Part shown: positions 5,673 through 41,941 of the stretch, piece after piece
How the letters are laid out: every line of letters starts with the position of its first letter
Position numbering within the stretch: position 1 is the first letter of the stretch
Assembly: GCA_964419615.1 (NCBI GenBank)
Contig: CAYQPU010000001.1
Span: 1-64,000, forward strand
Reading direction: 5' to 3'
Length of the DNA: 64,000 nt
From: an uncultured Methanosarcinales archaeon
GTDB lineage: Archaea; Nanobdellota; Nanobdellia; Woesearchaeales; JAGVZT01
The notes under the pieces: model-generated
The model's database searches: none
What the model was told of the DNA's origin: nothing
Seen by the model: only the letters and a program-made list of their open reading frames with translations
Position numbers and translations under genes: made by a program

Positions 5673-6377
5673 ATGAAATTTAAAGAATTTGTAGAAAAAA
5701 CAAAAGAGAATTATGACATAGTTGAGGAACCAAAAGTATTGATGGTCATTGATGGTGGTGTAGAGAAGAGAGAAGGTACGGATCCATTGACACAGGTGCA
5801 AGAATCCATAAATGATATGCCTAAAGATTTAGCATCATTTGTAGTTGAGCAAGGAGATTATAGGAATCAGATTAATGGTGTGTCAAGTATGCCTGGAATT
5901 CTTGTTTCATGGAAAGCGTGGTTTGCAGGTGCTAGTATTGCATGGAATGTTTTAAAACAGACCTATGGAGCAGATATTGAAGTCAATCAAGAACATGTTG
6001 ACCAATATTTATTTTCACAACTGCAAACTCCATTAAAACAACTTGATTCAGACCAAGGTATTAGCGCGAGTGAGATGAGTGCAAATATGTATTTTGCAGA
6101 TAGAGATAAAGAAGGATTGGAAGCATTAACTGATGAAAAAGGAGTTTTTGGTCCATTTGATTTTGATCCAGTTGGTATAAAATCTGAGGATAGTAGAGTT
6201 ATTATTGGTGGTTATGCAGCTAGTAGCAGAGAAGATGGATTGGTCTTTAGAGTTTTTAAAGATACCAATAATGCTGAGTTGATTAATGGATACCTGGCTG
6301 TGATGAGAATTGCATATAATGCAATTGAAAGTGACATAATCAAAAATGAAGAATCAGCAGGACCAGTATTAGACTAG
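5673..6377 (+). CDS. hypothetical protein, paralog family B
   Basis: SD aggtga; WFAGASIAWNVLK and NGYLAVMR motifs. Confidence 0.8.
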   Translation: MKFKEFVEKTKENYDIVEEPKVLMVIDGGVEKREGTDPLTQVQESINDMPKDLASFVVEQGDYRNQINGVSSMPGILVSWKAWFAGASIAWNVLKQTYGADIEVNQEHVDQYLFSQLQTPLKQLDSDQGISASEMSANMYFADRDKEGLEALTDEKGVFGPFDFDPVGIKSEDSRVIIGGYAASSREDGLVFRVFKDTNNAELINGYLAVMRIAYNAIESDIIKNEESAGPVLD

Positions 6378-6396
6378 AAAGTTAATTGTTAATCAC

Positions 6397-6548
6397 AGTT
6401 AGCCCCTTTGGGCCTGCTCGTTCGCCAGTTTGTTATCTGTGTTTGATATATTAATCTTGATTATATCCATGTTGACAAACTGTTCCTTTTTGTTTCTTAT
6501 CACAATCACTGGCTCACTCACATAAACCTGGCCAAAAAGGGGCCAACT
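6397..6548 (+). ncRNA. candidate structured ncRNA, copy 1 (family unknown; strand tentative)
   Basis: terminal stem GTTAGCCCCTTT/AAAGGGGCCAAC, inner stem CAGTTTGTTA/TGACAAACTG; homologous to 42254..42399 with compensatory changes. Confidence 0.55.
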
Positions 6549-6614
6549 TTCAATTTTTAACCAATATTTATTATTAATAACATTTATAAATAACCCCATG
6601 TTCCATGATAGTAT

Positions 6615-6719
6615 ATGAAGCGAAGCTCAAGACGTTGGAAGAAAAAAGGCCAAATGCGTTGGAAATGGCAGAGAAAACGAATGAACAAGTTAAAACAGAG
6701 ACGAAAGAAAAAGAAATAG
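6615..6719 (+). CDS. rpl41e: ribosomal protein L41e (eL41), 34 aa; below the ORF-track cutoff
   Basis: translates MKRSSRRWKKKGQMRWKWQRKRMNKLKQRRKKKK, matching the archaeal L41e pattern. Confidence 0.9.
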   Translation: MKRSSRRWKKKGQMRWKWQRKRMNKLKQRRKKKK

Positions 6720-7681
6720 ATTTATAAATGAGTTTTGCTTACCCATATACACGATTTCAAACCAGGGGTTTGAAGTCAAATCAACTCCATCTTACATAAT
6801 GAATACTTGATGATCAATTAAGTATGAAAGATATTTGTGAGTCTCAAGAATTAAGAAGCGACCGTCCAATATAAAAAAATACACTGGAGGGGTTATCTCA
6901 ATACATATGAGAAGGATTTTACCTCGCTATAAAAGTGCATTTTTTTGAACGAATTCCAGTTGATCCTGCTGGAGGCCGCTGCTATTGGGATCCGACTAAG
7001 CCATGCAAGTCCAGGGGTGCTTCGGCACACCGGCAAACTGCTCAGTAACACGTCGATAATCTGCCCTTGAGTCAGGGATAACCTTGGGAAACTGAGGCTA
7101 ATACTTGATAGGGGAATTCTACTGTAATGTGTTTTCCTTTAAAGATTACGCTCAAGGATGAGTTGGCGGTGGATTAGCTTGTTGGTGGGGTAATGGCCCA
7201 CCAAGGCGATGATCCATAGGGGCCTTGGAAGAGGTAGCCCCGAGAAGGACACTGAGATACTGGTCCTAGCCCCACGGGGTGCAGCAGGCGCGAAAACTTT
7301 ACACTACACGAAAGTGTGATAAGGGGATCCCAAGTGCCTATACTATGTATAGGCTTTTTCCAAGAGTAAAGACCTTGGAGAATAAGTGGTGGGAAAGACT
7401 GGTGCCAGCAGCCGCGGTAATACCAGCGCCACAAGTGGGGGCCATGTTTATTGGGCCTTAAGCGTTCGTAGCAGGTTGTATAAATCTCTTGTGAAATCGT
7501 TAGGCTTAACCTAACGGCGTGCAGGAGAGACTGTAAAACTAGAGACCGGGAGGAGTCAGAGGAATTCTTGGGGGAGCGGTAAAATGCTATAATCCCAGGA
7601 GGACCACCGGTGGCGAAGGCGTCTGACTAGAACGGGTCTGACTGTGAGGGACGAAAGCCAGGGGAGCAAACCGGATTAGAT

Positions 7682-7819
7682 CGACCTTTTGTAAACAAAA
7701 GCTCGACCAAAAACACTTAAGTGCGATATTTTACTTTGTAAAAATCGCACGAACTAATGTTTGCAACAATCTACATTTAGTGAAAGTGTGGTCAAATTAT
7801 GTACAAAAGTGTCCTAAAT
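7682..7819 (+). other. 138-nt ORF-less BHB intron in 16S (E. coli 793/794)
   Basis: splits GGATTAGAT|ACCC; central helix TTAG/CTAA with 3-nt bulges; basal stem GACCTTTTGTA/TACAAAAGTGTC. Confidence 0.85.
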
Positions 7820-7909
7820 ACCCGAGTAGTCCTGGCTGTAAACGCTGCGAGCAAGGTGTTGCATATTCCAACATGAATATGCAGTGTCGAAACGAAGGTG
7901 TTAAGCTCG

Positions 7910-7960
<51 letters not shown>

Positions 7961-8104
7961 CTCACTACAAGGGGTGCGGCGTGCGGTTTAATTGAACTCA
8001 ACACCGGAAATCTCACCAGGAGCGACGGCAGAATGAAGGTCAGTCTAAAGGGCTTACCTGACGAGCCGAGAGGTGGTGCATGGCCGTCGTCAGCTCGTGC
8101 CGTA

Positions 8105-8135
8105 ACTTTGAAGGTTTTAACATTCAAAGCGGTTA
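8105..8135 (+). other. 31-nt BHB mini-intron in 16S (E. coli ~1079/1080)
   Basis: splits GTGCCGTA|AGGTGTCC; helix GCCG/CGGT; bulges TAA/TAA; stem CTTTGAA/TTCAAAG. Confidence 0.85.
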
Positions 8136-8450
8136 AGGTGTCCTGTTAAGTCAGGCAACGAGCGAGACCTGCATCTACAATTGCTAACAGCTCTATCAGA
8201 GGACTGAGCACATTGTAGAGACTGCCTTGGAAACAAGGAGGAAGGTGCAGGCTACGGTAGGTCTGTATGCCCCGAATCCCCTGGGCTACACGCGCGCAAC
8301 AATGGTAAGGACAATGGGATGCAACTCCGAGAGGAGAAGCTAATCCTCGAAACCTTATCTTAGTCCAGATTGAGGGCTGCAACTCGCCCTCATGACGCCG
8401 GAATCCCTAGTAATCGGACGTCAACAGCGTCCGGTGAATACGTCCCTGAG

Positions 8451-8483
<33 letters not shown>

Positions 8484-8734
8484 TGGGTTTGAGTGAGGCC
8501 TAGCTTTTTAGCTATGTCGAACTCAGGCTCGATGAGGAGGGTTAAGTCGTCACAAGGTATCCGTAGGGGAACCTGCGGATGGATCACCTCCTTTTTTATT
8601 TAAGCAGGGACTCACAAATATCTCTTATACCACAAACTATATAAGAAACATATAGTTTAAACATATCACTTCTATCCCGCAGCGGGGGACAAGCGCTGAT
8701 TTTCATGTGATAATCATAATATTATCATGTTCAT

Positions 8735-8860
8735 GGGCCCGTAGCTCAGTTGGTAGAGCGTCGCCCTTGCATAGGGAGATTCTTCCAAAAGACAGGCGGA
8801 GGCCTCGGGTTCGAAAACGGGATCCAATTATGGAACCGGGTGAAAGCCCCGACGGGTCCA
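8735..8860 (+). tRNA. tRNA-Ala: tRNA-Ala(UGC) with two introns: 8772..8793 (37/38) and 8816..8846 (59/60)
   Basis: acceptor stem GGGCCCG/CGGGTCC, D arm GCTC/GAGC, anticodon TGC, T arm TCGGG-TTCGAAC-CCCGA after splicing; lies in the 16S-23S spacer. Confidence 0.92.
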
Positions 8861-10103
8861 TTTTCGATTACAGAAAATGACCCTCCGAACGAAAGTGAGG
8901 TTGGGTCAATTTCATATTCAATCACAATCATTTAATCAAAATGGTTTGGTTATCAGCAGAATACCAAACCTTCGGCTAAAACATCATGTTAATGCGGCCA
9001 TGCATAAGTTGGAAAGGCTAAGCTATTAGGTGGATGACTCGGCTCAAGAGCTGATGAAGGGCGTGACAAGCTACGATATGCTTTGGCGAGCCGCATGTAG
9101 GCATTGAACCAAAGATACCTCAATCAGACTTCTGCTTGAATCAGTAATGATGGGAAACGCAGGGAATTGAAACATCTTAGTACCTGCAGGAAAAGAAATT
9201 AATAAAGATGCTGCTAGTAACAGCGAGTGAAAGCAGCTTAAGGCAAACTGAATCCCTTTTTGAAAGAGAAGGGAGATGTGGTGTTATAAGACTACCTTTA
9301 AGCCCTATTCTGGCAACCTAAACTCTCCTGGAAAGGAGGACCATAGAGTGTGATAGTCACGTAAGGGTAACTGGGATGGGCCATGGTATGTTCTTGAGTA
9401 CCTTTCGCTGGAAACCGAGAGGGAATTTGGGAGGCATCAACTTCCAACCTTAAATACTACTTGAGTCCGATAGCAAACAAGTACTGTGAAGGAAAGTTGA
9501 AAAGAACCCCTAACAGGGAGTTAAAAGAACCTGAAACCTAATAGCGATCGTGTGGTACCGCTCTACGGAGTTGTACCGTTCGTTTCGAATAACGTGCCAG
9601 GGAGTGTATTTGTGTGGCAAGGATAATCTAAAAGAGGATCCAAAGCGAAAGCAACAAACCCGCAGCTTGCGAGGGGTGGGGTGTGAAAGCGCCCATAGTC
9701 ACATGGATACGATCTGAAGCTGGGCGATCTACGCTTGGGCAAGGTGAAGCCAGAGTAAAATTTGGTGGAGGCCTGAAAAGGTTCTATGGACAAGTGTTCT
9801 TCTGATCTGAGTGTAGGGGTAAAATGCTAATCGAGCCCAGCAATAGCAGGTTCCTGCCAAAGTTGGCTGTAGTCAAATCTCGGTGGAGATGGCTGAGGAG
9901 GTAGAGATACGGATTGAGAGTTTAGGCGTGGAGACACGTCGGCACTCTGTCCAACTCCGAATGCTTCAGCATCATAGATGCCGGGGGACGGGGGCGTGGG
10001 GTAAGCCCATGTCCCGAGAGGGGAACAACCCAGACTATAGTTAAGGTCCCAAAGTACTAGTTAAGTGTTAAAGGCTAAAGAGTGTTCATTTCCCAAGACA
10101 GCG

Positions 10104-10136
<33 letters not shown>

Positions 10137-10964
10137 AAGTGCGTAACAGCTTACTCGTCAAGGAAGTGGGCCTCGAAAATGGACGGGGCTAAACTAGTCA
10201 CCGATACTATAGAGTTTTGTAAAAAATTTGGTAGGCAGGCGTTCTGTTTGGATAGAAGTGTGTCTGCGAAGATGCATGGACCGGATAGAAATGAGGATCC
10301 TGGCGGTAGTAGGATCTGAGCAGCTTGAGAATAGCTGCCACCGTAAGGGCAAGGGTTCCTTGACAATGCAAATCAGTCAAGGGTAAGTTGGTCCTAACTG
10401 ACTTCATAACTAGAAGTAATGAGGAAAGGGAAACAGGTTAATATTCCTGTACTATTTAGGTATCCGGCGACGAAAGCCTTGTTTCTGACGCTTTTGGGTA
10501 AGTTATCACTGTTTGTCTGCAGTGTTAACCAGCATAAATCTGTGGAGTATCTTAATGATGAGAAACAGATTAAAGCTGGGATGAGCATCCTTCTGGGATG
10601 TATAGCTGATCCCTGGAGCCCGTGAAAAAGGAACAAGGATAAATTCTAAATAACCATACCCAGAACCGACACAGGTGCCCCTAGGTGAGAAGCCTAAGGT
10701 GTGAAGGGACAATCCAATTAAGGGAAATCGGCAAATTAGCCCCGTGTCTTCGGTGGAAGGGGTCCCTGCGATTGTGTTCGTATGAATGCGATTACAGGGC
10801 GCAGTGACAAGGGGGGTCCGACTGTTTAACAAAAACATAGCCAACTGCCAACCCGTAAGGGCTAGTATAGTTGGTGACGTCTGCCCACTACCAGTACTTT
10901 AAACTCCTTTACAAGGGAGCGAAGAGCTGGCAAAGGGCGGGAGTAACTATAACTCTCTTAAGGT

Positions 10965-11686
10965 GAAAATCGTTGCCTTATCAAAATCTAGCTATATGCT
11001 CGAATATCTGGTGTATCTCATGCTACCAGTGGACATATGTGCGTAAGACTTTTTAAGTTTGATCACATATGAAGACTGGTGAAAATGCAATGAGTGCAGA
11101 CAACGAGCAGGAAAGGCTAAATACAGATTGGGTTGTTGGATTCGTTGATGGTGAAGGATGCTTTCATGTTTCAATTAATAAAATTTCAAAGATGTCTTTG
11201 GGATGGCAAGTTCTTCCAGAATTTCGTGTTGTTCAACATGAAAAAGAAGTGAAGATTTTGTTACAATTACAAAGGTTTTTTGGAATGGGAATTGTTGTTA
11301 AAAATCATGGAAGCAGAAAAGAGCTAAGAATAAGAGGTCATAGTACTCTTAAAGAATTAGTTCGATTCTTCAATAAAAATCCACTGAGAACATCAAAACA
11401 AAAAGATTTTGAGATATTTGCTCAAATAATCAGTTTGATGGATCAAGGGAAGCATCTCACAAGAGATGGTTTGAAGAAAATTTCAATTCTTCGGTCAAAA
11501 ATGAACCGACAAGTTAAACCAAAGTATTTAGAATCCCCAGAGACTATACGCTAGACACATAATATTGTGTGAAGACATAGTCCGACCCACTAGGCGACTA
11601 GTGGAGGTGTGCAGAAATGTGCATCCACCATCATCAAGATGGTCAAAACCCTAACTGTATTTTATGGGTTTAAAGTAACAGATGTG
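10965..11686 (+). mobile_element. group I intron at 23S position 1931
   Basis: exon ends ...CTTAAGGT(U), P1 pairs AAGGT with GCCTT, intron ends in G before AGCGAAATACC; core-like GAGACTATACG and AAGACATAGTCC (P7). Confidence 0.9.
11069..11554 (+). CDS. single-motif LAGLIDADG homing endonuclease (intron-encoded; start may be 11090)
   Basis: WVVGFVDGEG motif; C-terminal ESPETIR reads through the intron core. Confidence 0.92.
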   Translation: MKTGENAMSADNEQERLNTDWVVGFVDGEGCFHVSINKISKMSLGWQVLPEFRVVQHEKEVKILLQLQRFFGMGIVVKNHGSRKELRIRGHSTLKELVRFFNKNPLRTSKQKDFEIFAQIISLMDQGKHLTRDGLKKISILRSKMNRQVKPKYLESPETIR

Positions 11687-12223
11687 AGCGAAATACCTTG
11701 TCGTTTGAATGACGACGTGCATGAATGACGTAACGAGATCCCCACTGTCCCTAATTGGAACCCTCTGAACACTCTATTCTGGTGCAGAAGCCAGAGATTT
11801 CCAGTGGGAAGTGAAGACCCCGTGAAACTTTACTGTAGCCTGTTGCTGTGATGCGGATGTTGTTGTATAGTGTAGGTGGGAGTTGCTAAAACTTGAGTCG
11901 AAAGACGAGAGATCAGACGACAATGTAACACCACTCTTCATAATTTGCATTGCTTACTCGAAAGAGGACACCAATTGGCAGACAGTTTGGCTGGGGTGGC
12001 ACGCTGCTGAAATAATATCAGCAGCGCCCAAAGGTTGACTCAACGCGGTCGGAAATCGCGTGTGGAGTGCAAGGGCATAAGTCAGCCTGAATGGATTCTC
12101 ACTAAGACAGATTCCAGCAAAGAAATTTTGGCCTAGCGAACCTCTATGTCCTCCTTGATGGGGGCTAGAGATGACCGAAAAGTTACTCCGGGGATAACAG
12201 AGTTGTCTCCCCCGAGCGTTCAC

Positions 12224-20492: not shown

Positions 20493-20999
20493 ATGAACTT
20501 ACTAAGATTTTTGAAAAACAATAAAAAAGCAAGAAAGATTTTTGGAAAGAGAGAATTAAGAATAATTGAGAAGCAGTTGTTAGGAGTTAACCTAACACAA
20601 TCAGAAAAGAACAGATTATCTCGAGATATAAGGAAAAAATTTGAATTTATTAAGCAAACTGCAAAATTCCAAGATGAATTCAAATTAAAAAAAGGAAAGA
20701 TTATAGACCAAATAATAAATCAAGCAATAAAATCAATTCTACAAGAAACAAAAGATGTTAAAAAAATACATTTATTTGGATCTGCAGCAGACAAAACCCT
20801 TCATTTGAATTCAGATATTGATTTGGCTGTTGAATTTGACAATATCAGCTTAAAAAAAGCTACTTTGTTTAAGAAAAGAATCCTTGGACAGGTAGATAAA
20901 AAAGTGGATATACTGGTTTTCGAATATCTTCCGGAAAAGATAAAACAAGAGATAAAAACAAAAGGAAAACTGATCTATCTGAATGAGAATAAAAGATAA
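20493..20999 (+). CDS. mntA: minimal nucleotidyltransferase antitoxin with N-terminal extension
   Basis: LFGS...SDIDLAV..VDI motif; overlaps the HEPN gene. Confidence 0.85.
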   Translation: MNLLRFLKNNKKARKIFGKRELRIIEKQLLGVNLTQSEKNRLSRDIRKKFEFIKQTAKFQDEFKLKKGKIIDQIINQAIKSILQETKDVKKIHLFGSAADKTLHLNSDIDLAVEFDNISLKKATLFKKRILGQVDKKVDILVFEYLPEKIKQEIKTKGKLIYLNENKR

Positions 21000-21399
21000 G
21001 ATTGAGCAGATTAAAAGATATTTAGATGAATTAGAACAGATTTCTCCGAATAATTTTGAGGATTATGACATAAAAACTTGTGCTGCATGTGAAAGATACT
21101 TTGAAAAAATTGTTGAGGCAGCAGTTGATTTGAGTTATCTTGTAATTAAGAAAAATCAATTTAAGGTTCCAGAAGAGGCTAATGAAGCCTTTGACATCTT
21201 AGTTAAGGAAAAAATTATTTCAAAAGAATTAGCAACTAGATTAAAAGAAGCTAAAGGAATGAGAAATCTTATCTCTCATCAGTATGGAAACATAGATGAC
21301 AAAATTGTGTTTAAATCAATAACAGAAGAATTACCAACAGACATAAAGAATTATATCAATATAATAAAAACAAAATTTAACAGAGAATATCTATACTGA
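20983..21399 (+). CDS. hepT: HEPN/DUF86 RNase toxin
   Basis: ACERYFEKIVEA and R-X4-H motif RNLISH, followed by Y..ID. Confidence 0.88.
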   Translation: MRIKDKIEQIKRYLDELEQISPNNFEDYDIKTCAACERYFEKIVEAAVDLSYLVIKKNQFKVPEEANEAFDILVKEKIISKELATRLKEAKGMRNLISHQYGNIDDKIVFKSITEELPTDIKNYINIIKTKFNREYLY

Positions 21400-22719: not shown

Positions 22720-23279
22720 AACAATATTGGAACAAGTTAAGTCCAAAACAAAAATTGATTACAAAATTAACCGTTGCTGCACTTGTAGGTGGAACAGTAG
22801 TTGGTGGTGTTTGTTATACAGCTGGTCAGGTTAATGTAGCTGAATTTTTGGAAGAACCAACAGAGGCTGCATCTATTGCTTTGGAAGCAAAACTAATTGA
22901 ATTTAATCCAGGGTATTATGTTGATGTTGCAACAGGATATATTGCTGAGCATCCTGAAGAAATGCAAGCGTATACTGAGAATCTTGCAACATTTGTTTAT
23001 GCTGTCAACGAAGCTGACTTGTTAACCGAAGACGGACAAATCTATATGTTTGCTGCAAATGCAAATGAGATACCTGTTGAGGTTGGTGTTAAGGTTTGTA
23101 ATGAGAATATTTTACCACGAACTGAAAACAGTCTGGAATTAGAGTATGTTCTAACAGGTGTGAAACAACTTGATGTTGATGATTATGGGACTATCTTGCT
23201 AGAGATGGGAGCTCAAGTCAAGGGTACATTGACAGAGGACATCAAGGATCTGTTTAACTGGGGAGATAATGGGAATTAA
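22716..23279 (+). CDS. membrane-anchored hypothetical protein
   Basis: ATGA overlap; basic N terminus followed by a hydrophobic helix. Confidence 0.7.
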   Translation: MKQYWNKLSPKQKLITKLTVAALVGGTVVGGVCYTAGQVNVAEFLEEPTEAASIALEAKLIEFNPGYYVDVATGYIAEHPEEMQAYTENLATFVYAVNEADLLTEDGQIYMFAANANEIPVEVGVKVCNENILPRTENSLELEYVLTGVKQLDVDDYGTILLEMGAQVKGTLTEDIKDLFNWGDNGN

Positions 23280-23463
23280 GAGTAGATTGTTGACATATGC
23301 AGTGATATTTACTTTGGGTTACAGCATGGGAAGCTGCATTATGAATGCTGAATATGATCAACAACCTATGGCGTCTACATACCAAGGTGTGGATGTTGAA
23401 AGTATTCAATCATTAAGTGAAATGGAATTTAATGAACACAGTATTGAGGCTTTGCTTCCATGA
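23269..23463 (+). CDS. small membrane or secreted hypothetical protein
   Basis: overlapping start; N-terminal hydrophobic helix. Confidence 0.55.
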   Translation: MGIKSRLLTYAVIFTLGYSMGSCIMNAEYDQQPMASTYQGVDVESIQSLSEMEFNEHSIEALLP

Positions 23464-23645
23464 ATACAACAAAAAAAGGAGCAAAGCTTGAGATTTATGT
23501 TGAACAGTTGTTCAAAGATCTTTGTAAAATAAAGGTCAGGAGAAATGTGATTTACAATTGCAAAGGCGTGGTGACTAGGAGAAAAAGGCGAGCGCAGATT
23601 GATGTTGAATATTGGGATGTGAGATACAATTCCTTTTTGTACTAA
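23460..23645 (+). pseudogene. truncated Mrr-like PD-(D/E)XK restriction endonuclease domain
   Basis: KGAKLE.YV..LF, RNV, QIDV motifs; ends before the E-x-K motif. Confidence 0.55.
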
Positions 23646-23801
23646 TCTATCAAGAGCATCATATACTGTTGTTCTATGCATTTTAGAAGTGTCTGCTATT
23701 TTGGAAGCTGTTGCAGATCCCAAATCAAGTAATGTTAAATAGATTTTAGCTTCGTTTTTACTAAGCCCAATTTCTTCCAAGATTTCCAAACGATCTTCCA
23801 T
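23616..23801 (-). pseudogene. truncated TrmB-family regulator (HTH only; ORF reads on to 23406)
   Basis: LEEIGLSKNEAKIYLTLL..GSATAS.IA....HRTTVYDALDRLVQKGIVSHI, then antisense of the endonuclease. Confidence 0.7.
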
Positions 23802-23892
23802 AATATTGGAAGAGTTATGTGGAATATAAATATTTGTTAAAACACCATTTTGTGCCAATATATTTTTATATATCAATAAAATCTATTCAAAT

Positions 23893-24483
23893 ATGAGAAT
23901 CCTTTGCTTTGTTGATGTTCATGGTGATTTTGGAGCCATTAGAAAATTGGCTAAAAAGGCTCGGAAAGCTGATTTGCTGATTTGTGCAGGAGATATTTCT
24001 AGATTTGAGACAGATATTGATCTGATTTTACAGAAATTGGATGAGATTGGCAGGAAAATTCTTATTATACATGGAAATCATGAAGGTTCTGATTATTTGG
24101 CTGAAAAGTGTGAAAAATTTGATAATTTGGTGTTTTTTCACAAAAAAACTGAGTTTATTGAAGATGTGCTGTTTATTGGTCATGGTGGAGGAGGATTTGA
24201 GGAAAAATCTCCAAATATGGAAAAGTTCTTTCAAAAAAACGAAGATATGCTTAGAAAGGCTCAAAAGTCAGTATTTATTACGCACGCGCCTCCTTTTAAG
24301 ACCAAATTAGATGTTATTGGTAGAAATCACAATGGAAATAATACTTTAAGGAATCTTATTATCAAGTATCAGCCAGTTTATGCTATTTCTGGGCATTTTC
24401 ATGAAAACTGGGGTAAAAAAGATACTATTGGAATGTGTAAGGTGCTTAATCCTGGGCCTTACGGTGTTTTAATCAATATCTAG
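23893..24483 (+). CDS. calcineurin-like metallophosphoesterase
   Basis: DVHG, GD, GNHE, THAPP, GHFHE motifs. Confidence 0.9.
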   Translation: MRILCFVDVHGDFGAIRKLAKKARKADLLICAGDISRFETDIDLILQKLDEIGRKILIIHGNHEGSDYLAEKCEKFDNLVFFHKKTEFIEDVLFIGHGGGGFEEKSPNMEKFFQKNEDMLRKAQKSVFITHAPPFKTKLDVIGRNHNGNNTLRNLIIKYQPVYAISGHFHENWGKKDTIGMCKVLNPGPYGVLINI

Positions 24484-24634
24484 TCTCAATCTTGCCCTGA
24501 GACTGTCTCAATATTGTCTCACACAGTTCCACAGGAAATCAAGGGGTGCCTTCTCCACATGAAATAAAGGGGTCTCATCATTTGAAGAAGTCTCATTAAT
24601 GTCTCAATTTCTTCTTAATGTTGTCTCATGAGAC
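24483..24634. other. probable replication origin (oriC): two ORB boxes plus GTCTCA repeats
   Basis: GTTCCACAGGAAATCAAGGGGT (24526) and CTCCACATGAAATAAAGGGGT (24553) resemble the ORB consensus with G-string; nine GTCTCA/TGAGAC copies. Confidence 0.7.
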
Positions 24635-24669
24635 AAAAGTTTAATAAATCCAAGAGATAGATTAAAGTT

Positions 24670-25089
24670 ATGGGGGATGAATTAGAAGATCTAAAGTACA
24701 ATCTAAAAGTATCTTTTTCTAGAATGAAGAATGATATTCAAGATAATAAAGATAAGATCTCAAAGCTTTTAGAAATAAACCAACAACTTGCAGATCAGGT
24801 TTCTGAGTTAAATAAAGGTCTTAATACAAAATCTTCTGGACCAAAATCTGAGCTTGCAAGGCAGTTTAAGAAGAATCAAAAATCTTTGATTCAACAGAGA
24901 ATTTTGAGTTTGATTGAAAGGGCAGAATATTCCTTACCTGATCTAAAGATGATAATTGTTGATCAGAAAAGATATTGTTCTAAAGCCACGTTTTATAGGT
25001 ATGTTAGTGAGCTTGAGAAATCAAAGCTTGTTAGTATGGCTGAAGTTAATGGTGAGAATATTGTTGTTGGCAAGAATGCTAATGAATGA
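24670..25089 (+). CDS. coiled-coil plus C-terminal winged-helix protein
   Basis: heptad N terminus; YSLPDLKMIIVDQKRYCSKATFYRYVSELEKSKLV HTH. Confidence 0.75.
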   Translation: MGDELEDLKYNLKVSFSRMKNDIQDNKDKISKLLEINQQLADQVSELNKGLNTKSSGPKSELARQFKKNQKSLIQQRILSLIERAEYSLPDLKMIIVDQKRYCSKATFYRYVSELEKSKLVSMAEVNGENIVVGKNANE

Positions 25090-25774
25090 TTTTTGATTTG
25101 ATATCATCTGTTCCATGTTCAAATGTAACATCCATGAATTGAATCCATAAGTATTCTGGAATTGAATCAGCCACACTCAAGAATATTTCGGCCTGATTTC
25201 TTGTCAAATAATGCTTTGTAGCTCGAGTTTGTCTTCTAACTTGGCTATCCTTATGCACTAGACTGTAACCATTTAAGTCCAATTTTTCAAGTTCATCAAA
25301 AACTTTTTCATATGATTGTCTCATTCCAGCATACTGCTCGTTATTATGTGCGCGCACAATTGCTCCTGCAATTAATGTAGGTGATTGGTCGGACATTAAT
25401 AATACAGAATTATTAAACCATTGCCTAATAGACCAAGGTGTTTGTACTGGTGGTTCATATTGTTCTTGCTCTCTATGCTCGACAATTGCACTTAAATTAA
25501 TTGAGATGCCAGATTTATCTACAACACCTTCTTCTACATGTGCAATTAGACCATTAGGTGCAAAAACATCAACTCCCAAGACTTCATTAAGTTCATCACA
25601 ATATCTACGCATTGGTCCAGCATCTTTTCTTAAAAAAGAGTTAACTGGGTGCACTTCTGATACATACTTCTCCTTAAAATATTCAGCCGCTGCAACTACT
25701 TTTTCTGCAGTTAGTTCATTTCCTAATAAACAACCTTGAATAAATTCAACATCTTGATCAGTGTATAATTCCAT
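25079..25774 (-). CDS. hypothetical protein
   Basis: 231-aa ORF. Confidence 0.65.
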   Translation of the reverse strand: MELYTDQDVEFIQGCLLGNELTAEKVVAAAEYFKEKYVSEVHPVNSFLRKDAGPMRRYCDELNEVLGVDVFAPNGLIAHVEEGVVDKSGISINLSAIVEHREQEQYEPPVQTPWSIRQWFNNSVLLMSDQSPTLIAGAIVRAHNNEQYAGMRQSYEKVFDELEKLDLNGYSLVHKDSQVRRQTRATKHYLTRNQAEIFLSVADSIPEYLWIQFMDVTFEHGTDDIKSKIIH

Positions 25775-40873: not shown

Positions 40874-41941
40874 ATGGGGATGTTTGATGGAATGCTTGGA
40901 TCTGATGAAACTTTGTTTAAGAATCCTGTTGCTCTTGATTATGATTATCTTCCAAAAATATTACCTTATAGAGAGGGTGAACAGCGAAAAATTGCTGCTT
41001 GTGTAAAACCTCTGTTTAATAGAAGGAATGGTCGTAACTTGATTATTTTTGGTAAGTCTGGTGTTGGTAAGACTGCTGCTTGCAAGCATGTTTTAGTGGA
41101 ATTAGAAGAGCAAACAGATGAGATTGTCCCTATTCATGTTAATTGCTGGCAAAAAAATACTTCTTATAAGATTCTTACAGAGATGTGTGAGGAGTTAGGT
41201 TATAGGTTGACACATAACAAGAAAACTGATGAGCTGCTAAAAGTTGTGGTTACTATGCTTAACAAAAGTTCAGCTGTGCTTGTGTTTGATGAGATTGATA
41301 AGGTTGAGGATTATGATTTTTTGTATAATTTTTTAGAAAGTCTTTATAGAAAGAGTGTTGTTTTAATTACAAATCACAAAGAGTGGTATAATGAGCTTGA
41401 TTCTAGGATCAAATCGAGGTTAGTCCCAGAGATGCTTGAGTTCAAGCCTTATAACGTTGAGGAGACTGGAGGGATTTTAAAGCAGAGAATTGTGCATGGT
41501 TTTCAAGAAGGTGTTTTTGGGTCAGATTCAATTAGTTTGGTTACTAAAAAAACCCATGAGATGCAGGATATTAGATCTGGTTTGTATTTGTTAAAAGAAG
41601 CTGCTAATATTGCTGAGGAAAAAGCTTGCCGAAAGGTTGATATTGAACATGTTAAGATTGCTGTTGGTAAGTTAGATGAGTTTAAGATCAAGGATAGCGG
41701 GGATTTAGATGAAGAGACTCAGAATATTTTAAAGATTATTAAGAATAATTCTGGTAAAAAGATTGGAGATTTGTTTAAGGTTTATCAAGAGGATGGTGGG
41801 AGTTTAGTGTACAAGTCTTTTCAAAGAAAGGTAAAAAAGCTTGAGAAAGGTAAGTATATTTCGGTTTTAACAAAGACAGGTGGAAAAGAAGGAACAACTT
41901 CTATTTTGAGTTATAGTGATAAGAAGTTGACTGATTTTTAA
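40874..41941 (+). CDS. cdc6: Orc1/Cdc6 replication initiator
   Basis: LPYREGE, GKSGVGKT, VNCW, FDEID, C-terminal winged helix. Confidence 0.93.
   Translation: MGMFDGMLGSDETLFKNPVALDYDYLPKILPYREGEQRKIAACVKPLFNRRNGRNLIIFGKSGVGKTAACKHVLVELEEQTDEIVPIHVNCWQKNTSYKILTEMCEELGYRLTHNKKTDELLKVVVTMLNKSSAVLVFDEIDKVEDYDFLYNFLESLYRKSVVLITNHKEWYNELDSRIKSRLVPEMLEFKPYNVEETGGILKQRIVHGFQEGVFGSDSISLVTKKTHEMQDIRSGLYLLKEAANIAEEKACRKVDIEHVKIAVGKLDEFKIKDSGDLDEETQNILKIIKNNSGKKIGDLFKVYQEDGGSLVYKSFQRKVKKLEKGKYISVLTKTGGKEGTTSILSYSDKKLTDF

What the first reader, a model, noticed from the sequence alone, without database searches (positions are those of the whole stretch)
24483..25089. Candidate oriC: tandem ORBs interleaved with nine GTCTCA repeats, next to a winged-helix gene rather than cdc6
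Seen: two same-orientation ORB-like boxes with GGGGT strings (24526, 24553). GTCTCA occurs at 24483, 24505, 24516, 24572, 24590, 24601 and 24623, and TGAGAC at 24498 and 24629 (the last pair forms a 12-bp palindrome), in an A/T-rich tract. The next gene encodes a coiled-coil plus wHTH protein, and cdc6 is 16 kb away with no ORB upstream. Known: Orc1/Cdc6 binds ORBs; the crenarchaeal WhiP is a wHTH origin-associated initiator. Inference: a two-component DPANN origin in which the wHTH protein binds the GTCTCA iterons as a co-initiator or segregation factor.
Basis: partly seen in the sequence, partly recalled or inferred. Interest (0 to 1): 0.72.

Follow-up and report, generated by a model that had tools for sequence, protein, structure and literature searches.

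The report
Off-origin Orc1 boxes in repeat array
Two textbook binding boxes for the archaeal replication initiator sit inside an evenly spaced array of GTCTCA repeats, directly in front of the gene for the small DNA-binding protein that most likely binds those repeats. The unit is kept across a whole order of tiny marine archaea (Woesearchaeales) and I found no published description of it, but it is not the chromosome's main replication origin.

Summary
Nine GTCTCA/TGAGAC hexamers and two tandem ORB boxes lie at 24483-24634, and this is the only such cluster in the 1.48-Mb genome.

The origin reading is mostly wrong:
- A canonical oriC lies on another contig (C3:6366-6816). It has inverted ORBs around a DUE of 4% GC, directly upstream of orc1-1, polD DP1 and DP2. 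This design is conserved in about 28 relatives.
- The window's cdc6 (40874-41941) is the divergent Orc1-2 paralogue.
- The cassette has no DUE (36.6% GC), and its ORBs all point the same way.
- In the one closed relative with a clean skew, the cassette lies 281 kb from oriC1 with no skew inflection.

The cassette itself is strongly conserved. Iteron arrays picked by pattern alone sit next to this wHTH family in 26 of about 27 real arrays, and most embed 1-3 ORBs. The protein's recognition helix co-varies with the iteron sequence (YCSKATFYRY with GTCTCA; LCSKSSFYRL with GTCCCA).

Strict ORBs occur at only three kinds of locus: oriC1, the tbp-mcm-rpa promoter and this cassette.

Best reading (confidence 0.5): a self-bound promoter and nucleoprotein site that Orc1 also reads. 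A secondary or unidirectional origin is not excluded (0.2).

Earlier follow-ups in this scan reached the same conclusion for the same cassette in other genomes. I found no published description.

The parts
24483..24521 (+). Left iteron block. GTCTCA at 24483 (overlapping the stop codon of the upstream phosphoesterase gene), 24505 and 24516; TGAGAC at 24498. The sites at 24498-24510 form the inverted pair TGAGAC-T-GTCTCA. Direct spacings are 22 and 11 bp.
   Evidence: The same left block (> < > >) is kept in family-level relatives.
24526..24547 (+). ORB box 1 (core TCCACAGGAAATCAAGGGGT at 24528-24547): dyad part plus G-string.
   Evidence: Orthologous boxes occupy the same place in relatives.
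24552..24573 (+). ORB box 2 (core TCCACATGAAATAAAGGGGT at 24554-24573). Same orientation as box 1, 26 bp start to start. Its G-string overlaps the next iteron.
24572..24634 (+). Right iteron block. GTCTCA at 24572, 24590, 24601 and 24623; TGAGAC at 24629. The palindrome GTCTCATGAGAC at 24623-24634 abuts the promoter. Direct spacings are 18, 11 and 22 bp.
   Evidence: A terminal palindrome just before a TATA-like box is seen in nearly all standard-configuration relatives.
24635..24649 (+). Putative BRE/TATA (AAAAG + TTTAATAAAT). Its centre is about 25 bp before the ATG, which implies a leaderless or near-leaderless mRNA.
   Evidence: Sequence. A TATA-like A/T box sits at the same place in relatives. 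The promoter assignment is inferred from the known archaeal TATA-to-start distance and is not shown experimentally.
24670..25089 (+). Gene for a 139-aa protein: a long N-terminal helix (residues 2-51, probable coiled coil) plus a C-terminal winged helix-turn-helix. The recognition helix YCSKATFYRY is invariant. No Pfam or NCBIfam family.
40874..41941 (+). Orc1-2-type paralogue of Orc1/Cdc6 (AAA_22 + Cdc6_lid; no Cdc6_C Pfam hit). It is one of the two possible readers of the ORB boxes and is not physically linked to the cassette.
   Evidence: Its distance to the cassette varies from 13 to 544 kb in relatives. Which paralogue binds the ORBs was not tested.

Best explanation
The locus is a conserved site where Orc1/Cdc6 binds away from the replication origin. 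It is built around the promoter of a lineage-specific winged-helix gene.

Proposed mechanism:
- The wHTH protein dimerises through its N-terminal helix and binds the GTCTCA hexamers. The hexamers are mostly spaced at 11, 22 or 33 bp, that is, on one face of the helix. The result is a higher-order complex on both sides of the ORB boxes.
- The terminal palindrome directly upstream of BRE/TATA lets the protein control its own transcription.
- One to three Orc1/Cdc6 molecules, all facing the same way, bind the embedded ORBs and add an input that depends on the initiator.
- This makes the gene the third member of a very small ORB 'regulon', alongside orc1-1 at oriC1 and the tbp-mcm-rpa operon.

What is shown: the anatomy, uniqueness, conservation, linkage and co-variation, the absence of origin hallmarks, and a canonical origin elsewhere.

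What is inferred: who binds what, the direction of regulation, and the downstream role of the wHTH protein. That role is probably linked to replication or the cell cycle.
For: 1. Uniqueness and significance of the array.

2. Conservation of the iteron-gene unit.
- Homologues chosen by protein carry the same array upstream in the same family and in other families.
- Arrays chosen only by GTCTCA-N5-GTCTCA occur in 62 of 301 genomes of the order, nearly always at one locus per genome.
- 26 of about 27 real arrays sit next to a member of this protein family.

3. Evidence that the protein binds the iterons.
- The recognition helix is invariant where the hexamer is invariant.
- The long-form subfamily has helix LCSKS(S/T)FYR(L/I) and uses GTCCCA instead of GTCTCA.

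4. Promoter geometry. The palindrome, a TATA-like box and the ATG follow each other; the first two within about 15 bp, and the box centre about 25 bp before the ATG, here and in relatives.

5. Evidence that it is not an origin.
- No DUE: 36.6% GC.
- ORBs are always co-oriented within a cassette.
- A canonical oriC1 with inverted ORBs, a DUE and orc1-1/polD exists in this genome and in relatives.
- In closed G091, the strand-balanced skew switches at oriC1 (about 590 kb). It keeps one sign on both sides of the cassette at 868 kb.

6. Precedent within these genomes for ORBs acting as promoter elements.
- 21 of 29 relatives have 1-3 ORBs at about -105 to -165 and -200 to -245 upstream of tbp, all oriented with the gene.
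- In this genome tbp heads a tbp-mcm-rpa cluster.
- Strict ORBs occur genome-wide only at oriC1, upstream of tbp and at the cassette, in G000 and in three closed genomes (G398, G103, G023).

7. Literature precedent. Sulfolobus Orc1-2 is a transcription factor that activates tfb3 and other genes (PMC6061795). Orc1-2 paralogues are generally not linked to origins (PMC3914693).
Against: 1. In about 8 lineages the wHTH gene is inverted, so the array lies at its 3' end and cannot be its promoter. The linkage therefore serves something beyond autoregulation.

2. Arrays of 5-25 phased sites are far more than a simple operator needs. They look more like centromeres or iteron origins.

3. A third of the arrays have no ORB and carry another rare element (TATCGACGA) instead. 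The Orc1 input is therefore not essential to the core module.

4. Nothing shows binding, regulation or transcription. The only RNA contig found lies in the neighbouring gene.

5. The skew evidence rests on one closed relative. G104 has an uninformative monotonic skew. Partial G181 shows a local skew peak at the cassette.
Confidence: 0.5

Rival explanations
1. A secondary origin of a two-component type, possibly unidirectional or rarely used. Orc1 on the co-oriented ORBs would load MCM, and the iteron-bound wHTH protein would act as co-initiator. This would be a chromosomal analogue of iteron plasmids, or of Sulfolobus oriC3/WhiP. It is the weakened form of the first reader's idea.
For: - The ORBs are of full origin quality.
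- The layout of direct iterons, initiator boxes, an inverted repeat at the promoter and an adjacent wH gene mirrors iteron replicons (review PMC4980987).
- Array and gene stay linked whatever their relative orientation, as an origin and its factor do.
- The patchy distribution (26 of 41 relatives) fits an accessory, captured origin.
- There is a local skew peak at the cassette in partial G181.
- Sulfolobus UBP shows that small non-initiator proteins can be essential at origins (PMC12141716).
Against: - No DUE.
- ORBs are never inverted, and both inverted ORBs are needed for Sulfolobus oriC1 activity (PMC12141716).
- Some cassettes have a single ORB and some have none.
- In G091 the skew has the same sign on both sides of the cassette, which excludes a frequently used bidirectional origin there.
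- Gene orientation does not diverge at the cassette, whereas it does at oriC1.
- The protein has one wH domain, not the two of RepA or WhiP.
Confidence: 0.2
2. A centromere-like or chromosome-organising landmark. The phased iterons would be coated by the wHTH protein, as parC is by ParR or parS by ParB, to mark one chromosomal position for segregation or condensation. Orc1 binding would couple this to replication.
For: - There is a single locus per genome with many helically phased sites.
- The cognate binding-protein gene is adjacent in either orientation.
- Iterons flank the promoter, as in R1 parC (own knowledge).
- One database source labels a homologue 'chromosome segregation ATPase'. This is almost certainly a coiled-coil artefact.
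Against: - No partner NTPase gene is nearby. The neighbours are a metallophosphoesterase, an unknown 231-aa protein and ABCE1. The only recurrent neighbour in relatives is DUF192.
- The position relative to oriC1 varies from 12% to 33% of the genome.
- The family is missing from about a third of high-quality relatives.
Confidence: 0.15
3. An initiator-control locus analogous to E. coli datA or DARS. A cluster of initiator boxes away from the origin, shaped by an architectural protein, would titrate Orc1 or change its nucleotide state and so time initiation at oriC1.
For: - ORBs of origin quality lie off the origin, embedded in an array for a dedicated DNA-shaping protein.
- There are only three ORB-bearing loci per genome.
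- The cassette lies 100-400 kb from oriC1, so it is duplicated at a set time after initiation.
Against: - This is purely an analogy; no such locus is known in archaea.
- One to three boxes give little titration capacity.
- Cassettes without ORBs exist.
Confidence: 0.1

Closest known systems
Canonical archaeal Orc1/Cdc6-dependent oriC (Pyrococcus oriC next to cdc6-polD; Sulfolobus oriC1: ORB / DUE / inverted ORB)
   Same: The ORB sequence is the same: dyad plus G-string. The same boxes occur at this genome's own oriC1 on contig C3.
   Different: - No DUE.
- ORBs are tandem and never inverted.
- Not next to an initiator gene.
- Not at a skew switch in the closed relative.
- Embedded in a second repeat family.
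ORB pairs upstream of the tbp-mcm-rpa operon in Woesearchaeales
   Same: - ORBs lie off the origin, co-oriented, about 100-220 bp upstream of a start codon.
- They are conserved across the order.
- The probable role is a promoter element read by the initiator.
   Different: - The tbp boxes are about 85 bp apart and have no iterons around them.
- The cassette boxes are 24-26 bp apart, sit inside the wHTH protein's own binding array, and can flip relative to the gene.
Iteron-type plasmid replicons (pPS10, R6K, RK2, P1: DnaA boxes + iterons + inverted repeat at the rep promoter + rep gene; review PMC4980987)
   Same: - Host-initiator boxes lie beside direct iterons.
- An inverted half-repeat pair sits at the promoter of the adjacent winged-helix gene.
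- Array and gene are inherited together.
   Different: - Chromosomal, single-copy and vertically inherited.
- No AT-rich unwinding element.
- The protein has one wH domain plus a coiled coil, not WH1-WH2.
- The iterons are 6-bp cores at 11-bp pitch rather than 17-22-bp units.
Sulfolobus ucm/UBP (PMC12141716) and oriC3/WhiP (PMC3607249)
   Same: A small sequence-specific protein that is not Orc acts next to ORBs. The authors of PMC12141716 explicitly ask whether other archaeal lineages have analogous proteins.
   Different: - The ucm is a single 11-bp motif inside the DUE of true origins, and UBP binds more than 300 sites genome-wide.
- Here the protein appears to have one target locus, and that locus lacks origin features.
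Sulfolobus Orc1-2 as a transcription factor (PMC6061795, PMC9738581)
   Same: An Orc1/Cdc6 paralogue reads promoter-proximal sites and controls genes that include a general transcription factor paralogue.
   Different: - Orc1-2 reads a short ANTTTC motif at -23 to -55.
- Here the sites are full ORBs further upstream, and which paralogue binds them is unknown.
Plasmid R1 parC/ParR type centromere (own knowledge)
   Same: Two blocks of 11-bp-phased iterons flank the promoter of the gene for the protein that binds them.
   Different: - ParR is a ribbon-helix-helix protein with a ParM partner.
- Here the protein is a wHTH, no NTPase partner is present, and initiator boxes sit in the middle.

Membership tests
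Canonical archaeal oriC (Orc1/Cdc6 type) | ORB elements matching the dyad + G-string consensus | tested here: met
   Two perfect boxes at 24528-24547 and 24554-24573.
Canonical archaeal oriC (Orc1/Cdc6 type) | At least two ORBs in inverted orientation flanking the unwinding region | tested here: not met
   Both boxes are on the + strand. In about 40 orthologous cassettes the ORBs are always co-oriented. oriC1 on C3 and in relatives does have inverted ORBs.
Canonical archaeal oriC (Orc1/Cdc6 type) | AT-rich duplex unwinding element | tested here: not met
   The cassette is 36.6% GC, and its minimum over 100 bp is 28% (17th percentile of genome windows). The oriC1 minimum is 4% (0.007th percentile).
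Canonical archaeal oriC (Orc1/Cdc6 type) | Adjacent initiator gene (usual, not obligatory) | tested here: not met
   orc1-2 is 16 kb away and orc1-1 is on contig C3. The distance to orc1-2 varies from 13 to 544 kb in relatives.
Canonical archaeal oriC (Orc1/Cdc6 type) | Replication-associated compositional switch at the site | tested here: not met
   Closed relative G091: the strand-balanced GC skew switches near oriC1 (about 590 kb). It is negative on both sides of the cassette at 868 kb. This could not be tested in the fragmented G000. G104 is uninformative and G181 is ambiguous.
Canonical archaeal oriC (Orc1/Cdc6 type) | Origin activity in vivo (MFA, 2D gels, ARS) | not testable with these tools
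   The runs holding the locus are low-depth marine metagenome contigs.
Iteron-type replicon origin | Direct repeats in helical phase beside host-initiator boxes | tested here: met
   Spacings of 11 and 22 bp in the window. Across loci, 81 of 207 successive spacings are 11 bp, 24 are 22 bp and 9 are 33 bp; about 39 of the 11-bp ones follow from how the loci were chosen.
Iteron-type replicon origin | Inverted iteron pair at the promoter of the adjacent gene | tested here: met
   GTCTCATGAGAC at 24623-24634, directly before the TATA-like box.
Iteron-type replicon origin | Adjacent gene encodes a Rep initiator with two winged-helix domains | tested here: not met
   The AF2 model (pLDDT 85) shows one long helix plus a single wHTH. 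Foldseek returns only generic ArsR/PadR/FUR-type matches.
Iteron-type replicon origin | AT-rich unwinding region next to the iterons | tested here: not met
Partition centromere with its binding protein (parC/ParR-like) | Phased repeats bound by the product of the adjacent gene | tested here: inconclusive
   Linkage and helix/iteron co-variation support binding. There is no biochemical test.
Partition centromere with its binding protein (parC/ParR-like) | Partner NTPase gene in the same module | tested here: not met
   The neighbours are a metallophosphoesterase, an unknown 231-aa protein and ABCE1. The only recurrent neighbour in relatives is DUF192.
Initiator-read promoter element (as at tbp-mcm-rpa in this order) | Co-oriented ORBs at a conserved distance upstream of a promoter, outside the origin | tested here: met
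   The cassette ORBs start 142 and 116 bp before the ATG. The tbp ORBs lie at about -137 and -221 in G000 and at similar places in 21 of 29 relatives.
Initiator-read promoter element (as at tbp-mcm-rpa in this order) | Orc1/Cdc6 binding that changes transcription | not testable with these tools
   Needs EMSA or footprinting and in vitro transcription.

The most novel reading that the evidence does not exclude
The cassette is a new, two-component kind of archaeal replication element outside oriC. A dedicated iteron-binding winged-helix protein cooperates with Orc1/Cdc6 bound to co-oriented ORBs. Together they either fire a secondary (possibly unidirectional) origin or control initiator activity, as datA and DARS do in bacteria.
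Probability: 0.25. Interest if true: 0.82.

Novelty: new variant of a known kind. Interest (0 to 1): 0.66.

Why it matters
Replication control in DPANN archaea is essentially unstudied, and ORB boxes are normally taken as a direct marker of an origin. Here, across a whole order, perfect ORBs occur at exactly three kinds of locus: the true origin, the promoter of the helicase operon, and this cassette.

Three consequences follow:
- The initiator appears to have a small set of targets outside the origin.
- An uncharacterised, order-wide wHTH family with a single, elaborate target site is tied to the initiator.

This gives a concrete protein-DNA pair for testing how an archaeal initiator is used away from origins. 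Dhanaraju et al. (PMC12141716) raise that question explicitly for other archaeal lineages.

Tried and rejected
1. Two ORB classes (GGGGT at the cassette, GGTGT at oriC1), each read by a different Orc1 paralogue. This was suggested by G000 and G091, but many relatives have full GGGGT boxes at oriC1. Rejected.

2. Correlating the cassette with presence of Orc1-2. Every relative has both paralogues, so the test is uninformative.

3. The TATCGACGA element of ORB-less arrays as an alternative initiator box that is also present at oriC1. It was found in only one of about 28 oriC1 regions. Rejected. The element remains unexplained.

4. GC skew.
- G104 (1.0-Mb contig) has a monotonic cumulative skew, even after balancing for gene strand. 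Unusable.
- G181 was fetched only in part and is ambiguous.
I did not try another route.

5. Public reads. Eight runs hold the locus. All are stored as contigs at about 3x depth. The single RNA contig lies in the neighbouring 231-aa gene. Nothing could be learned about transcription start, expression or marker frequency.

6. Naming the protein.
- Pfam gives only a sub-threshold FUR winged-helix hit.
- NCBIfam gives nothing.
- Foldseek against the PDB gives only generic wHTH repressors with E above 0.004.
- The ESM Atlas gives only unnamed archaeal clusters.
- No homologue outside the order appeared among 301 sampled genomes of the phylum.

7. Literature. No paper combines ORB with Woesearchaeota, and none among the DPANN/Orc1/ORB hits describes this cassette.
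Full report
**1. What is in the window**

- The hexamer is under-represented in the window overall: 19 copies against 26.5 expected, with nine of them inside 152 bp.
- This is the only cluster of four or more copies per 200 bp in the whole 1.48-Mb, 64-contig assembly.
- The Poisson probability is about 1e-12 genome-wide.
- Phased or inverted hexamer pairs occur nowhere else in the genome.

Between the left and right hexamer blocks lie two tandem, co-oriented origin recognition boxes:
- TCCACAGGAAATCAAGGGGT at 24528-24547
- TCCACATGAAATAAAGGGGT at 24554-24573

A strict ORB pattern matches only three sites in the genome: these two and one on contig C3.

The last two hexamers form the palindrome GTCTCATGAGAC (24623-24634). 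It is followed at once by AAAAG and TTTAATAAAT. The centre of that A/T box lies about 25 bp before the ATG. This is the geometry of an archaeal BRE/TATA promoter with a leaderless mRNA. The promoter assignment is an inference from the well-established TATA-to-start distance.

The tract is not A/T-rich. It is 36.6% GC against a genome mean of 33.4%.

**2. The genome's canonical origin is elsewhere**

Cdc6_C and TIGR02928 searches of the whole genome find two Orc1/Cdc6 genes:
- a full-scoring orc1-1 at C3:6815-8023 (431.9 bits);
- the window's gene at 40874-41941 (175.7 bits, below the cut-off, no Cdc6_C hit). This is the fast-evolving Orc1-2 type. In other archaea that paralogue is not origin-linked (PMC3914693), and in Sulfolobus it is a transcription factor (PMC6061795).

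orc1-1 is followed by PolD DP1 and DP2. It is preceded by a 450-bp spacer (C3:6366-6816) with inverted ORBs at 6494(-), 6722(+) and 6790(-), around a stretch of 4% GC over 100 bp. That places it in the most AT-rich 0.007% of genome windows. Genes diverge from this spacer.

The same design recurs upstream of orc1-1 in about 27 relatives from more than 20 families, in G091 and in G104. It consists of a proximal ORB(-) at about -80, an ORB(+) at about -130 to -180, a DUE of 1-16% GC, and a distal ORB(-).

This is a textbook oriC of the Pyrococcus type.

**3. The cassette is conserved as a unit**

Homologues of the 139-aa protein were found in 26 of 41 relatives. Among the ten relatives' loci whose upstream regions I read, nine carry the same upstream architecture: all six from the same family, plus three from other families at 34-42% protein identity. 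Only G011's upstream region lacks it. That architecture is one to three tandem ORBs flanked by GTCTCA blocks, a terminal palindrome, a TATA-like box, and a start codon (ATGGGGGA or ATGGGAGA).

The upstream neighbour gene differs outside the family.

I then ran the reverse test. I searched 301 genomes of the order for GTCTCA-N5-GTCTCA alone.
- 62 genomes matched, almost always at one locus and often with several phased copies. The reversed-pattern control gave only scattered single hits.
- Of the 30 loci fetched, 26 of about 27 genuine arrays sit directly next to a gene that matches an HMM of this protein family. The exceptions are arrays cut by contig ends, plus one chance match.
- About three quarters of the arrays embed ORBs. 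Within any one cassette the ORBs always point the same way. Relative to the iterons they can point either way.
- Successive iteron spacings peak sharply at 11 bp (81 of 207), then 22 bp (24) and 33 bp (9). About 39 of the 11-bp spacings follow from how the loci were chosen.

In a 301-genome sample of the phylum, every one of the 111 genomes with the family belongs to this order. Source names identify the group as Woesearchaeota.

**4. The protein and its probable site**

AlphaFold2 on a 27-sequence alignment (pLDDT 85) gives a helix spanning residues 2-51, followed by a classic winged helix-turn-helix (residues 58-134). Foldseek finds only generic ArsR/PadR/FUR-type domains. Pfam, NCBIfam and the ESM Atlas give no family name.

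The recognition helix YCSKA(T/S)FYRY is invariant wherever the iteron is GTCTCA. A long-form subfamily (180-290 aa) has LCSKS(S/T)FYR(L/I) instead. Its arrays are built mainly of GTCCCA/TGGGAC.

This co-variation, together with the tight linkage, is the best in-silico evidence that the protein binds the hexamers. It may reflect a single evolutionary split, so it is suggestive rather than statistical.

The long-form arrays lack ORBs. At comparable positions they carry a rare element, T(T)ATCGACGA(T/G)AA. It occurs at 0.004-0.02 copies per 3.3 kb genome-wide, but at three to six copies in these loci. I cannot explain this element.

**5. Is it an origin?**

Tested against the defining features of an Orc1-type origin, the cassette has ORBs but nothing else:
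- It has no DUE.
- It has no inverted ORB pair, here or in any orthologue. Both inverted ORBs are individually required at Sulfolobus oriC1 (PMC12141716).
- It has no adjacent initiator gene.
- Gene orientation does not diverge from it.

G091 is a closed 909,956-bp relative with a clean V-shaped cumulative skew.
- A skew measure balanced for gene strand is positive from about 180 to 500 kb and negative from about 620 to 920 kb.
- The switch lies at orc1-1/polD (587.7 kb), and there is a broad zero zone at 0-150 kb.
- The cassette at 868 kb lies in the middle of the negative zone, with no change of sign.
- A frequently used bidirectional origin at the cassette would have reversed the skew between about 730 and 868 kb.

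The caveats are that it rests on one genome, that G104 has an odd monotonic skew, and that partial G181 shows small local peaks at both orc1-1 and the cassette. I could not fetch a further closed genome. A rarely used or unidirectional origin is not excluded.

**6. ORBs as promoter elements in this order**

The third strict ORB in G000 (C3:18290-18309), together with a weaker one 84 bp closer to the gene, lies upstream of tbp. That gene is followed directly by mcm and an RPA-like OB-fold gene.

In 21 of 29 relatives, one to three ORBs lie at about -105 to -165 and -200 to -245 from the tbp start. Apart from one overlapping weaker reverse-strand hit, all are oriented with the gene.

In G000 and in three closed genomes (G398, G103, G023), strict ORBs occur only near orc1-1, upstream of tbp, and at the cassette. 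The same three places hold all the well-formed boxes in G091 and G104.

tbp always lies 1.4-29 kb from orc1-1. Its ORBs nevertheless stay with its 5' end when the local gene order differs (G000 against G091).

ORBs outside origins, read at promoters, are therefore a regular feature of this order. The cassette ORBs start 142 and 116 bp before the wHTH start codon and fit that pattern.

**7. What argues for more than a promoter**

In about eight lineages the wHTH gene is inverted, so that its stop codon abuts or overlaps the end of the array. In those lineages the array cannot be the gene's promoter, yet the linkage persists.

Add to this the 5-25 phased sites and a single target locus per genome. 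Together these resemble a centromere with its binding protein, or an iteron origin with its Rep. I therefore keep three rivals:
- a secondary, two-component origin (0.2);
- a centromere-like landmark (0.15);
- a datA/DARS-like initiator-control site (0.1).

My best explanation (0.5) is a self-bound nucleoprotein site that Orc1 also reads. In the common configuration it doubles as the autoregulated promoter of the wHTH gene. This ties that protein to the initiator's small non-origin target set.

**8. Novelty and provenance**

Full-text searches found no description of ORBs in Woesearchaeota or of this cassette. The closest published analogues are ucm/UBP and oriC3/WhiP in Sulfolobus, Orc1-2 as a transcription factor, and bacterial iteron replicons.

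After I had reached these conclusions, a look-up showed that earlier follow-ups of this scan describe the same cassette in other Woesearchaeota genomes, and also the tbp-mcm ORBs. Their verdicts are the same: real, conserved, undescribed, and not the main origin. Those are AI notes and not independent evidence. I re-derived each of the shared points here.

Points I did not see in their summaries:
- the co-variation between recognition helix and iteron;
- the alternative TATCGACGA partner element;
- the inverted-gene configuration;
- the strand-balanced skew test.

**Unpublished genomes**

G006 contributes one cassette example (L021) and one of the 21 of 29 tbp loci (L112). G138 is one of the 62 of 301 pattern matches. 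G215 and G425 are two of the 111 of 301 family matches. No conclusion depends on any of them.

Noticed in passing
G000 contig C3:6366-6816 (locus L002), outside the window: Canonical oriC of this genome. Inverted ORBs at 6494(-), 6722(+) and 6790(-) surround a stretch of 4% GC, directly upstream of orc1-1, polD DP1 and DP2. A TrmB-family gene diverges on the other side.
   Followed up: yes
G000 contig C3:18200-18310 (L002), outside the window: Two co-oriented ORBs lie about 137 and 221 bp upstream of tbp, which heads a tbp-mcm-rpa32-like cluster. Similar boxes occur in 21 of 29 relatives at fixed distances. tbp always lies 1.4-29 kb from orc1-1. In G038, tbp and orc1-1 are divergent neighbours only 1.4 kb apart, so the tbp boxes may descend from the distal ORBs of oriC1.
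   Followed up: partly
Loci L027, L030, L038, L039, L269, L270 (relatives): The rare element T(T)ATCGACGA(T/G)AA occurs in 2-6 copies in the GTCCCA-type, ORB-less arrays of the long-form wHTH subfamily, roughly where ORBs sit in the GTCTCA-type arrays. Its binding partner is unknown.
   Followed up: partly
G104 contig C1 (1,000,545 bp; loci L157-L207): The cumulative GC skew falls monotonically over the whole 1.0-Mb contig (final value -25,663), even after balancing for gene strand. The only reversal is at about 390-450 kb, starting about 8 kb from the cassette. There is no V shape, although a canonical oriC1 lies at 496.5 kb.
   Followed up: no
L019:1791-2243 and 12 other cassette loci: A DUF192 (PF02643) gene lies close to the wHTH gene in 13 of 38 loci from several families, directly downstream where I looked (L019). 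It is not present at that place in the window.
   Followed up: partly
window 23254-23876: A TrmB-type wHTH ORF (23406-23876, minus strand) matches the family only over residues 33-87 and then runs into unrelated sequence. It is overlapped by short ORFs on the other strand. This looks like gene debris just upstream of the phosphoesterase gene.
   Followed up: no
window 20493-21399: A HepT-like ribonuclease gene (20983-21399, Pfam E=1.7e-27) overlaps the end of a 168-aa ORF (20493-20999). This is probably a MNT/HepT toxin-antitoxin pair.
   Followed up: no
window 25079-25774 (minus strand): A 231-aa ORF with no Pfam or NCBIfam match is convergent with the wHTH gene and overlaps it by 11 bp. The only metatranscriptome contig laid on the region falls inside it (25365-25547).
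   Followed up: no
window 6000-12000: GC rises to 42-49% against about 33% elsewhere. This is probably the rRNA operon; I did not check.
   Followed up: no
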